The notes under the pieces are model-generated. The model saw only the letters and a program-made list of their open reading frames with translations, was not told the DNA's origin and ran no database searches. A DNA stretch of 64,000 nucleotides from Sphaerodactylus townsendi (Eukaryota): contig NC_059434.1 in the NCBI RefSeq assembly GCF_021028975.2, forward strand, positions 61,504,001-61,568,000, given 5' to 3'. Positions 27,701 to 30,700 of the stretch are shown in pieces. Made by a program: the position numbers and the translations under genes. Within the stretch, counting starts at the first letter, position 1; each line of letters begins with the position of its first letter.

Positions 27701-30700
27701 GAGGACCATTGACAAATGTACAGCACAATTTCAATCTACAAATATAAGATGGTGACTCATATTGAATCACACCATTAGTCAATTCCTACCAGTACCGTCT
27801 ATTCTGACCTTCAGTAACCTTCGGAGTTTCTAGGAAACTATCTCTTCCTCCAACATGCAACTTGAAATGCTTGAATTGGTGGTTCTGGGGATTGAACCTG
27901 GCATCTTTCACAAGCAGAGACTATGAATTGGACCAACCAACTTTTCCACTGGTGAAAACAAGAGGCGGGTCCCCCTTTTGCCATCAAAAATGTTATTCTG
28001 GGGATCATGTGACCCATATAGACAAAAGTGATGTGAGATGGGGGCTGAGATATGGGTTGAATCCCCACTGCCTTCTTAGCCAGGTTTCAGGGACGACCTC
28101 CCCATTGCTTGTGCGGCAGATTCCGTTTCTGGCGCTTGTTCTCCCCGTTCTCCCGCGTCCCGGCAGGACCTGGTTGCAAGTGGCATAGACCCCATTGACA
28201 CGGTTCAGAGCTGATCTGAGGGGAGGGACAAGGGTTGAAACCCTGACTTGTTTCCTGCCGCAGAGCGTTACGCAAAAATTGGGCAACCAGTCAGCGCTCT
28301 GCCGGCACTGAAGCGATGTGCGTGCAGCCAGCCTTTCCTGGGTTTCGTTTTTGCTTTTGCAATCAGCGAGCGAGAGCAGTAGGGGATGCGGAAGGACATT
28401 AACCGGTCAAACGTATAACTGTTGAATCTTTAAATGTTCACACAGTTAAACGGCTAACTGTTCACACAGTGAAACGCTAAACTTCAAAATGTTAGGGTTT
28501 TTTTGTGGTCCTGCCCCAACAAGGTAAGTTTCTGCAAGGAAAAAGGTCCCGCCCCATCAAGGCACGCCAGCCAATCAGGGGAGACCGGCGAAACGAGATT
28601 GCCTGGTAGTGGGGATTGCTAAGAGTTCTGGAACCGGGTGTGTCTGCTGTGTGCACGATGCAGTGGGGAGGTAGAAACTCCGATGAAGAGGTGCAGTTTC
28701 ACAATGAACTGGTTTTGATTTGCGTAAAATTTTCCAGTGGGAATTTGACCAAAGAGGGACGGAGTTTAAAAGCTGGTTGGATCCAACCCTACATTCACCA
28801 CCGAACTATAGTCTCACCCTTCTAATCTGCCACAGTTCTGTTACAGAGACCTTTACAAATGTTGGCTCATTGCTGAACAGTGGCACCTTCTCCAAACATT
28901 ATATTTATCTGTGTGAAAGGTTTCTTAATCTTGCTTAATCTTACTCTGGGAAATGAAGGTGTCTGCAGATTACATTTGCTTCATTCATACTCCATTGATG
29001 CCCACAAATAAACATCTTATTGGAATTCATTTGAACTTGAATGAATCTCTCCGATACATTTTCTGGCTTCAAGGAAACTTCAAAATCATCTAGAAAGCAA
29101 AATAAAATCTGCTAACACTTTTTTCTACTTAGTTACAAAACATGGCAACATCCATAAAACTTATTTCTGAACTTCCCAGAATGTAATATTTCTCATGTGG
29201 CAAAAAAAAAAATCCCTTGAAGTATATTGTCTCCCATGCCAACCCCGCCCCCCCCGCCCCCCCCATATATATATATCATCTTAATTGGCCGTTATCTGCT
29301 GTACCTGGTTCCCCGGGGGTTCGAGACTTTCCGGGTTGCCATCCAATGCTAGGTTTTTTGCTTTTGCTGTTTTTTTGTTGTTTGTATTTTAAATCAATTT
29401 TACTGTTTTAATTGCTATGATTTTTAGTTGTTCTGTCTTTTGTACATTGCCCAGAGCCCTCCGGGGGTGGACGGTATAGTAAATAAAATAATAAACAAAC
29501 AAACATAAGTCATTTAAATTCAGTCTTGATTTCATTGTAGCCTTCAGCTAAAAAAAATCATAACATTTGTTTACATAAATGCAAACAAAATAATACAATG
29601 TAGATTGTGTACATAGTTCTCGGAACTTACAGAACCAATATAGACTAAATAGTCATAACATGATGCATTTAATTGAACGAAGTTACATTTAATTTGCCAC
29701 TGCCCACTGAATAAACTAAAACAACTGCAAACTGATTTATCATTTTAAAAAAGAAATTAAGTTTTCAGTTAGTCAACGACTTAAGTTTTCAGTTAGTCAA
29801 AGACTTAAGTCTTGCAAAGAAACAAACACATATGTAATGTTGAAGGCTTTCATGGCCGGAATCACTAGGGTGCTGCATGGTTTCTGGGCTGTATGGTCGT
29901 GTTCTAGCAGCGTTCTCTCCTGACATTTTGCCTGCATCTGTGGCTGGCATCTTCAGAGGATCCTTCATGATCCTCTGAAGATGCCAACCACAGATGCAGG
30001 TGAAACGTCAGGAGAGAATGCTGCTAGAACATGGCCATACAGCCCGGAAACCACACAGCACCCCAAACAAACACATATTTTTTTACTATATTCTAAGATT
30101 TCCACAGTCATATTCTGCAGACATAACAGAATAACCAGTAGAACAATTACAGCCAGCATGTCTGAGCTTCTTATCCTTACAGCTTGTTCCTTGTCATGAT
30201 TGGGGGGGGGGGGGGAATTCAGTGTTCATACCTTGAAGTTCACAGTTTCCTCTGCTCCTAAATTTGCTGTTGTGACGTTGACACTCATAGCTCTTCAGTT
30301 GACAGTAGGTTCGAAATGTCTTTCCCTCCATAGAACAAACAGATGTGCCATTCTTTGGGCATTGATAGGGTAACTTGCAAGAACAGGTACCACCCATACA
30401 TCTTTGCCAAGGCTGGCAAAAAACTTTGTTGCAAGAATTAATAGTATAGCTGTTGTTTAGACATTCTTCTATCAAATAGTTTTTCCGTGGAGTTTGTTGG
30501 ATTGGTTTGTTTCTGCTCCTAGATATTCCCTGGGGAAAAAAATTTAAGCTTCTAGCAGTACAATCAGAGTTGCCCCTGTCCAAGTCGTTAGAAATCAGTG
30601 GTCTCAGAAGGGTGTCATGATACATAGGATAATACTGAAAATAGCATATAACATAAACCAAGTAGGTTTTTCTTACAGTTCCCAGCAATTAATGAATAAA

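What the first reader, a model, noticed from the sequence alone, without database searches (positions are those of the whole stretch)
29918..30013. Minimal hammerhead ribozymes carried by Penelope-like tails, set in inverted pairs
Seen: + strand 29971-30013 TCCT-CTGAAGA-T-GCC-loop-GGT-GAAAC-GTC-AGGA. It folds as a type I hammerhead: stem I TCCT/AGGA, CUGANGA and GAAA cores, GUC triplet, loopless palindromic ACGT stem III, one extra U after A9, and G-U at the base of stem II from CpG decay. The opposite arm, on the CFI sense strand, has GAAAC mutated to AAAAT. A second subfamily appears at 37266-37306 (triplet GUG) and 46944-46984 (GUU, stem II mismatch). Known: Penelope-like elements carry such minimal hammerheads, reported to act as dimers. 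Inference: the family consensus is an active self-cleaving RNA dispersed through the genome. Here each copy has at least one lesion and the one in CFI pre-mRNA has a broken core, compatible with decay or selection against intronic cleavage.
Basis: partly seen in the sequence, partly recalled or inferred. Interest (0 to 1): 0.7.

Follow-up and report, generated by a model that had tools for sequence, protein, structure and literature searches.

The report
Penelope stubs record ribozyme cuts
The paired hammerhead motifs are the decayed ends of a very common, already known lizard-type jumping gene, but a minority of its head-to-head insertions begin on both arms exactly at the ribozyme's predicted cut site, which likely records real self-cutting in living cells.

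Summary
The motif and coordinates are confirmed. Window 29833-30063 is one head-to-head insertion (14-bp target duplication) of a Poseidon-clade Penelope-like element inside a CFI intron; the hammerhead overlaps the element's start codon, as in the Anolis element PAc, whose hammerhead is published as protein-assisted. It is one of tens of thousands of copies (14,234 exact 23-mers). Its lesions are CpG transitions, and both arms are predicted to be locked in a long hairpin. Selection against intronic cleavage is not supported: intact cores in 20 of 27 sense versus 15 of 29 antisense arms. GUG at 37303 is a rare lesion; that subfamily has GUU (97 of 100). This likely records cleaved RNA being reverse-transcribed in the germ line, for roughly 1% of arms. 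The scan noted the same earlier in this genome (e1-9994936, e1-9037804) and in others.

The parts
29820..29833 (.). left copy of the 14-bp target-site duplication
29833..29962 (-). left arm, subfamily A, element positions -11..+118 (A of ATG = +1 at 29950); long arm with the 34-nt tail; hammerhead in CFI sense with G12>A and C15.2>T; N17 at 29922
29963..29968 (.). 6-nt filler at the head-to-head junction; both arms start at element position -11, next to the predicted transcription start
29969..30063 (+). right arm, subfamily A, positions -11..+83 (ATG at 29981); short arm; hammerhead 29971-30013, antisense to CFI, C11.1>T; predicted scissile bond after 30009
30065..30078 (.). right copy of the target-site duplication
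29090..30231 (-). predicted CFI intron holding the insertion (donor after the FIMAC/Kazal exon; acceptor read by eye)
   Evidence: Pfam Kazal_CFAI and CFAI_FIMAC_N at 30197-30688; splice sites
37122..37357 (.). subfamily B inverted pair: - arm +11..+118, + arm -44..+83 with hammerhead 37266-37306 (N7=U, N17=G at 37303); upstream of GAR1-like exons, probably intergenic
46888..47125 (.). subfamily B inverted pair: - arm -32..+88 with hammerhead 46944-46984 (C11.1>A, GUU), + arm +5..+118
52707..52780 (-). single subfamily B arm +14..+87, no 5' half of the hammerhead; between two 7tm_1 (RRH-like) frames

Best explanation
The finding is a short head-to-head insertion of a Poseidon-clade Penelope-like retrotransposon whose 5' end carries a minimal hammerhead; the insertion was likely made when both cut DNA strands primed reverse transcription on the element's RNA, and these genomic copies are predicted to be inactive relics. 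Shown: the hammerhead overlaps the ORF start; arms end at +84 or +118, nearly always one of each per pair; target duplications flank the pairs; 5' ends pile up at -11 and, in a minority, at +30. Inferred: the endonuclease makes a staggered cut, one strand primes at +118 and the other at +84, both cDNAs run to the 5' end of the RNA and are end-joined. That end is usually the TATA/Inr-driven transcript start (about -12, as in the window copy) and sometimes the 5'-OH end left by hammerhead cleavage (+30). The ribozyme would act in the source element's ribonucleoprotein, with protein help, removing cap and start codon from the mRNA; it is not needed for insertion and would not cut CFI pre-mRNA.
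For: Family. Relative: PMC11167929 main text parts 1-2 places the PAc ORF start at stem II, the cut 26 nt after the start codon and RT starts near +111-118; the RNA drawn in its supplement 1 differs from subfamily A at about 15 of 96 letters (counted by eye). Long/short rule: of 46 pair rows 5 uncallable, 39 long+short, 2 short+short, 0 long+long; 38 of 40 after dropping one nested double count (p 1.5e-9); 19 of 20 in the junction loci. 5' ends: subfamily A 26 of 46 young arms at -9..-18, 11 at -11; subfamily B 13 of 49 at -40..-49; first TATATA at -40..-47 in A and -72..-76 in B, about 30 nt upstream of each cluster; the top heterogeneous loose ends in three other runs are at -11, +83 and +118/+120. 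Cut site: 16 of the 50 listed (of 60) junction loci have both arms at +30, 12 of them strictly, against 0 of 27 at the same offset in a control region (p 0.0007 and 0.006); arms running 8 or more nt past the anchor 3 of 50 versus 16 of 27 (p 5e-7); 20 of 20 fetched loci have unrelated flanks; subfamily B shows about 10 arms at +30 in 34 loci. Constraint in source lineages: A and B share 41 of 42 hammerhead positions, 65 of 84 downstream, 4 of 32 upstream (unaligned).
Against: No cleavage was measured and no RNA reads were available. The junction tallies are by-eye counts of listings. Single-arm starts are less clean: in the first 100 of 1,125 subfamily A hits, 15 at +30 but also 13 at +32 and 11 at +28; in subfamily B about 5 of 100 at +30, no clear peak. 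Only one control region was tested, and its anchors differ in sequence. The -11 and -44 clusters also coincide with short palindromes that favour end-joining. No compensatory base change is seen between subfamilies, and from +1 on conservation is confounded with coding (third positions 11 of 11 versus 21 of 28, p 0.16). PMC11167929 found no RNA-seq reads ending at the cut site and no strand difference in RT start sites in vitro. Laying contigs on +12..+80 gave only 4 contigs with a loose end at +30, in one of four runs.
Confidence: 0.8

Rival explanations
1. The +30 junctions mark a reverse-transcriptase stop at the folded or protein-bound hammerhead core, not a cleaved RNA end.
For: Starts are also raised at +28 and +32; stem III of a dimer would begin at +28; no RNA ends at the site were found in Anolis RNA-seq (PMC11167929).
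Against: The stop lies past stem I (+33..+30), not at its edge; it is exact to the base on both arms with varied fillers; the active fold is not the favoured one in naked RNA (-10.5 versus -23.2 kcal/mol for the dimer, stem II counted as 3 bp).
Confidence: 0.2
2. The dispersed copies are active self-cleaving RNAs in host transcripts, and the broken core in CFI pre-mRNA was selected.
For: Many copies keep an intact core (22 of 56 young intronic arms fully intact); the CFI-sense arm does carry G12>A.
Against: Sense arms are not depleted (53 versus 60, p 0.57) and not more broken (intact 14 of 27 sense versus 8 of 29 antisense, p 0.10, direction opposite); G12 is a CpG site changed in 13 of 64 arms, like other CpGs (113 of 511); the pair folds as one -175 kcal/mol hairpin; the relative needs its protein. 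The sample is four large genes only.
Confidence: 0.04
3. The inverted pair is a self-propagating non-autonomous unit (MITE- or retrozyme-like) copied as a whole, or arises by fold-back of a single cDNA.
For: Symmetric junctions recur (-11/-11 in 5 of 20 subfamily A pair rows); fold-back would also give symmetric turning points; self-priming was proposed in PMC3846280 (passages).
Against: Junction positions and fillers differ from locus to locus, each with its own target duplication; both outer ends sit at RT start sites, which fold-back alone does not explain.
Confidence: 0.1

Closest known systems
PAc / Poseidon_Ac of Anolis carolinensis (Frangieh et al. 2024, PMC11167929; main text parts 1-2 of 4 and supplements 1-2 seen)
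   Same: ORF of about 820 aa starting at hammerhead stem II, cut 26 nt after the start codon, two RT start sites that bound the tail, about 84% identity over 96 nt by eye, both strands cut and extended.
   Different: That paper found no RNA ends at the cut site and did not report genomic junctions at it or the one-long-one-short pairing in the parts I read; subfamily B here has GUU and a different upstream region.
Minimal type I hammerheads (min-HHR) of metazoan PLEs (Cervera and De la Pena 2014, PMC4209133; parts 1-2 of 4 seen)
   Same: CUGANGA/GAAA core, extra base after A9, G10.1-C11.1 pair, palindromic loopless stem III, reported in Poseidon elements and reptiles, and as close pairs on opposite strands.
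   Different: Stem II here is 3 firm pairs plus a weak extension rather than 7-8 bp; no activity test of this variant.
EN+ PLE insertion architecture (PMC3846280 and PMC8557442; passages seen)
   Same: Inverted 5'-truncated pLTR, 30-40-bp tail on one end only, target duplication, TATA plus Inr in the pLTR, pLTR including the first codons.
   Different: There described qualitatively and ascribed to endonuclease resolution or self-priming; here counted (38 of 40) and read as priming from both strands.
Non-LTR retrozymes (bioRxiv 10.64898/2026.07.22.740005; part 1 of 5 seen)
   Same: Type I hammerhead of PLE origin, non-coding.
   Different: Retrozymes are head-to-tail tandems; these are head-to-head pairs that cannot dimerise in cis.

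Membership tests
EN+ Penelope-like element, Penelope/Poseidon type | single ORF with RT followed by a C-terminal GIY-YIG endonuclease | tested here: met
   819-aa ORF L074:3299-5755, Pfam RVT_1 1e-12; the C-terminal GVY..YIGTT motif was read by eye, Pfam gave no GIY-YIG hit
EN+ Penelope-like element, Penelope/Poseidon type | pLTR overlapping the ORF start, optional 30-40-bp tail, inverted truncated copy, target duplication | tested here: met
EN+ Penelope-like element, Penelope/Poseidon type | placement in the Poseidon clade by RT phylogeny | not tested
   only a by-eye comparison with the PAc RNA in a supplement
minimal type I hammerhead ribozyme | core C3-U4-G5-A6-N-G8-A9, G12-A13-A14-A15.1, U16.1-H17, stems I and II | tested here: met
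   family majority and the + arm 29971-30013 meet it; 29918-29960 (G12A), 37266-37306 (G17) and 46944-46984 (10.1-11.1 broken) do not
minimal type I hammerhead ribozyme | covariation of stems | tested here: inconclusive
   A and B are identical in the stems; strong conservation but no compensatory change
minimal type I hammerhead ribozyme | site-specific self-cleavage | not testable with these tools
   indirect only: junction pile-up at the scissile bond
minimal type I hammerhead ribozyme | match to an Rfam hammerhead model | tested here: not met
   no hit at E up to 1; the loopless form was defined outside such models in PMC4209133
non-LTR retrozyme | head-to-tail tandem of hammerhead-bearing units | tested here: not met
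   window copies are head-to-head

The most novel reading that the evidence does not exclude
The genome holds a base-exact fossil record that the Poseidon hammerhead cleaves in the germ line: both strands of the target copy one and the same RNA from two fixed start sites until they fall off its 5' end, which is the cap site or the ribozyme cut; cleavage strips cap and AUG and so acts as a protein-triggered translation-to-packaging switch or brake.
Probability: 0.6. Interest if true: 0.62.

Novelty: new member of a known kind. Interest (0 to 1): 0.42.

Why it matters
The motif itself is ordinary: PLE hammerheads in reptiles are published and a close Anolis relative has been assayed. But their function is called unclear (PMC8557442, passages), and RNA-seq showed no cleavage ends (PMC11167929). 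Junctions that start on both arms at the scissile bond would be in vivo evidence of cleavage, and the one-long-one-short rule gives a direct, testable prediction for how a dimeric PLE protein integrates. For CFI itself the insertion likely matters at most as an intronic double-stranded RNA.

Tried and rejected
Rfam scan: no hammerhead family hit. Monomer folding: no better than shuffles. Sequencing runs: no RNA holder listed, so expression and RNA ends are untested. Laying contigs on +12..+80 was uninformative. L071/L073, flagged with an 1853-aa open frame, is a poly-C/G repeat fused to an endonuclease fragment, not a long element. Spliced-template origin of the -11 ends: no recurring upstream exon among 99 arms at hand. 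Lower non-CpG change in core positions (2.7% versus 4.6%, p 0.02) fell to 1.7% versus 2.9%, p 0.095, once 11 polymorphic columns were removed; not taken as selection on copies. Hairpin-tip deletion as source of +30/+30 junctions: rejected by reasoning, since the blunt product is still a perfect palindrome and fillers vary. The paper on PLE hammerheads cleaving as dimers that I recalled was not held. Supplement text search for the PAc core found nothing; its GenBank file could not be read, so the full PAc comparison is open.

Full report
Observation. The 43 nt at 29971-30013 read as quoted, and the mirror arm at 29918-29960 carries G12>A and C15.2>T. The arms are a 95-nt inverted repeat with a 6-nt spacer, flanked by a 14-bp duplication at 29820-29833 and 30065-30078. 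The insertion lies downstream of a CFI FIMAC/Kazal exon on the minus strand, with LDLa and trypsin exons further on, 168 nt from the predicted donor. Two more pairs and one single arm are in the window. Rfam has no hit and monomers fold no better than shuffles.

What it is. Longer genomic copies continue upstream into a pLTR and an endonuclease frame. One locus holds an uninterrupted 819-aa ORF that begins at the ATG inside stem II and matches Pfam RVT_1. Subfamily B loci carry endonuclease frames 62-69% identical to it. An exact 23-mer of subfamily A occurs 14,234 times, reversed control 0; a CpG-tolerant subfamily B pattern 15,105 times. A sample of 1.6 Mb from four large genes, chosen from CUB-domain exon hits without regard to the repeat, gave 113 arms, about 70 per Mb. 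The genome is lizard-like by this relationship to the Anolis element; I did not identify it further.

Literature. PMC4209133 (parts 1-2 of 4 read) defines these minimal hammerheads, finds them in Poseidon elements and reptiles, notes pairs on opposite strands, and reports low dimer activity and none as monomer. PMC11167929 (parts 1-2 of 4, supplements 1-2) shows for PAc that the ORF starts at stem II, that cleavage needs the protein, that core mutants do not affect insertion, that both target strands are extended, and that no RNA-seq reads end at the cut. The RNA drawn in supplement 1 differs from subfamily A at about 15 of 96 letters by eye. PMC8557442 and PMC3846280 (passages) describe the inverted copy, the tail on one end, TATA/Inr in the pLTR, and call the hammerhead's function unclear.

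In the intronic sample 53 arms are sense and 60 antisense (p 0.57). Among young arms spanning the ribozyme, core and N17 are intact in 20 of 27 sense and 15 of 29 antisense; fully intact 14 of 27 and 8 of 29 (p 0.10, opposite to the prediction); with old arms included p is 0.3-0.6. G12 is changed in 13 of 64 arms, other CpG positions in 113 of 511. So the CFI-sense lesion is ordinary CpG decay. In CFI pre-mRNA the pair is predicted to form one hairpin of -175 kcal/mol. GUG is a rare lesion, although 9 of the 30 loci chosen for likeness to that copy carried it (by eye, output partly cut). Between subfamilies the hammerhead is far better kept than its flanks (41 of 42; 65 of 84 downstream, p 0.003), which points to selection in the source elements, without compensatory changes to prove structure.

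How the pairs arise. Of 46 pair rows, 5 could not be called, 39 have one arm ending near +84 and one near +118, 2 are short-short and none long-long; one row is a nested double count, leaving 38 of 40. Each target strand carries antisense cDNA joined to its copy of the duplication, so I infer priming from both strands at the two RT start sites. The 5' ends cluster: 26 of 46 young A arms at -9..-18 (11 at -11), 13 of 49 B arms at -40..-49, each about 30 nt downstream of a TATATA. In B the cluster is well upstream of the ribozyme, so it tracks the promoter and not the ribozyme edge; both clusters also sit at short palindromes. Contigs of three other runs show the same top loose ends at -11, +83 and +118/+120. 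The window copy is a -11/-11, +118/+83 case.

The cut site. A genome-wide pattern for head-to-head junctions near the cut found 60 loci, 50 listed. By eye 16 have both arms starting at +30, the base after GUC, blunt or with 1-6 filler bases; 14 more have one arm at +30; 3 pass it clearly, all through the ACGT palindrome. I fetched those 16 plus 4 related loci: 12 of the 16 are strictly 30/30 and 4 have one substitution in the next bases; 19 of 20 are long+short with 7-15-bp duplications; no flanks resemble each other. The same design at +47..+57 found 27 loci with scattered, asymmetric ends and none symmetric at that offset (tests). Subfamily B, 34 loci, shows about 10 arms at +30 and 8 palindrome junctions. 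Against: single-arm starts peak at +30 only modestly in A (15, with 13 at +32 and 11 at +28 of 100) and not in B. A three-mismatch pattern gives 178 copies starting at +30, which I scale roughly to 1% of A arms. In naked RNA an inactive pairing of the core across the cut site is favoured, in line with protein assistance. I read +30 as the 5' end of cleaved RNA; an RT stop at the folded core remains possible.

Prior art. Six paper searches listed no paper reporting PLE junctions at the hammerhead cut or twin priming for PLEs; I saw only listings for most hits, and subscription journals are largely missing. This scan's own notes, looked up after my counts, report the same reading in this genome and others; they are unchecked and not independent support.

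Verdict. A real, known motif in a new member of a known family; the copies in this window are likely inert. Interest rests on the side result that insertion junctions likely record in vivo cleavage and coupled two-strand priming.

Noticed in passing
G000:C1:4702526-4702968: Five subfamily B hammerhead matches head-to-tail at 91-109-nt spacing: a retrozyme-like tandem that could dimerise in cis.
   Followed up: no
L074:3299-5755: Uninterrupted 819-aa Poseidon-type ORF with a short inverted arm at its 5' end, so the family is probably young.
   Followed up: partly
L253, L255 and rows: Recurrent arms that read ...TCTGAAACGTCAGG; in L253 and L255 this is an inverted junction at a shared CTGAA-like stretch, others may be stem II deletions.
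   Followed up: partly
sample arms under 84% identity: At least two older subfamilies with the same hammerhead and the same long/short pairing but different flanks.
   Followed up: partly
L073:3200-8300: About 5 kb of poly-C/G tandem repeat between an endonuclease fragment and a hammerhead arm; poly-G/C runs also abut truncation points in L246, L250 and L019; possibly assembly artefact.
   Followed up: no
window 19913-20072, 35075-35339, 56322-56456, 8729-8868: Other long inverted repeats unrelated to the hammerhead family, probably miniature DNA transposons.
   Followed up: no
window 13140-63422: Gene order PLA2G12-like (-), CFI (-), GAR1-like (+, 39.7-43.5 kb, by eye), 7tm_1 RRH-like (+), LRR gene (+).
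   Followed up: partly
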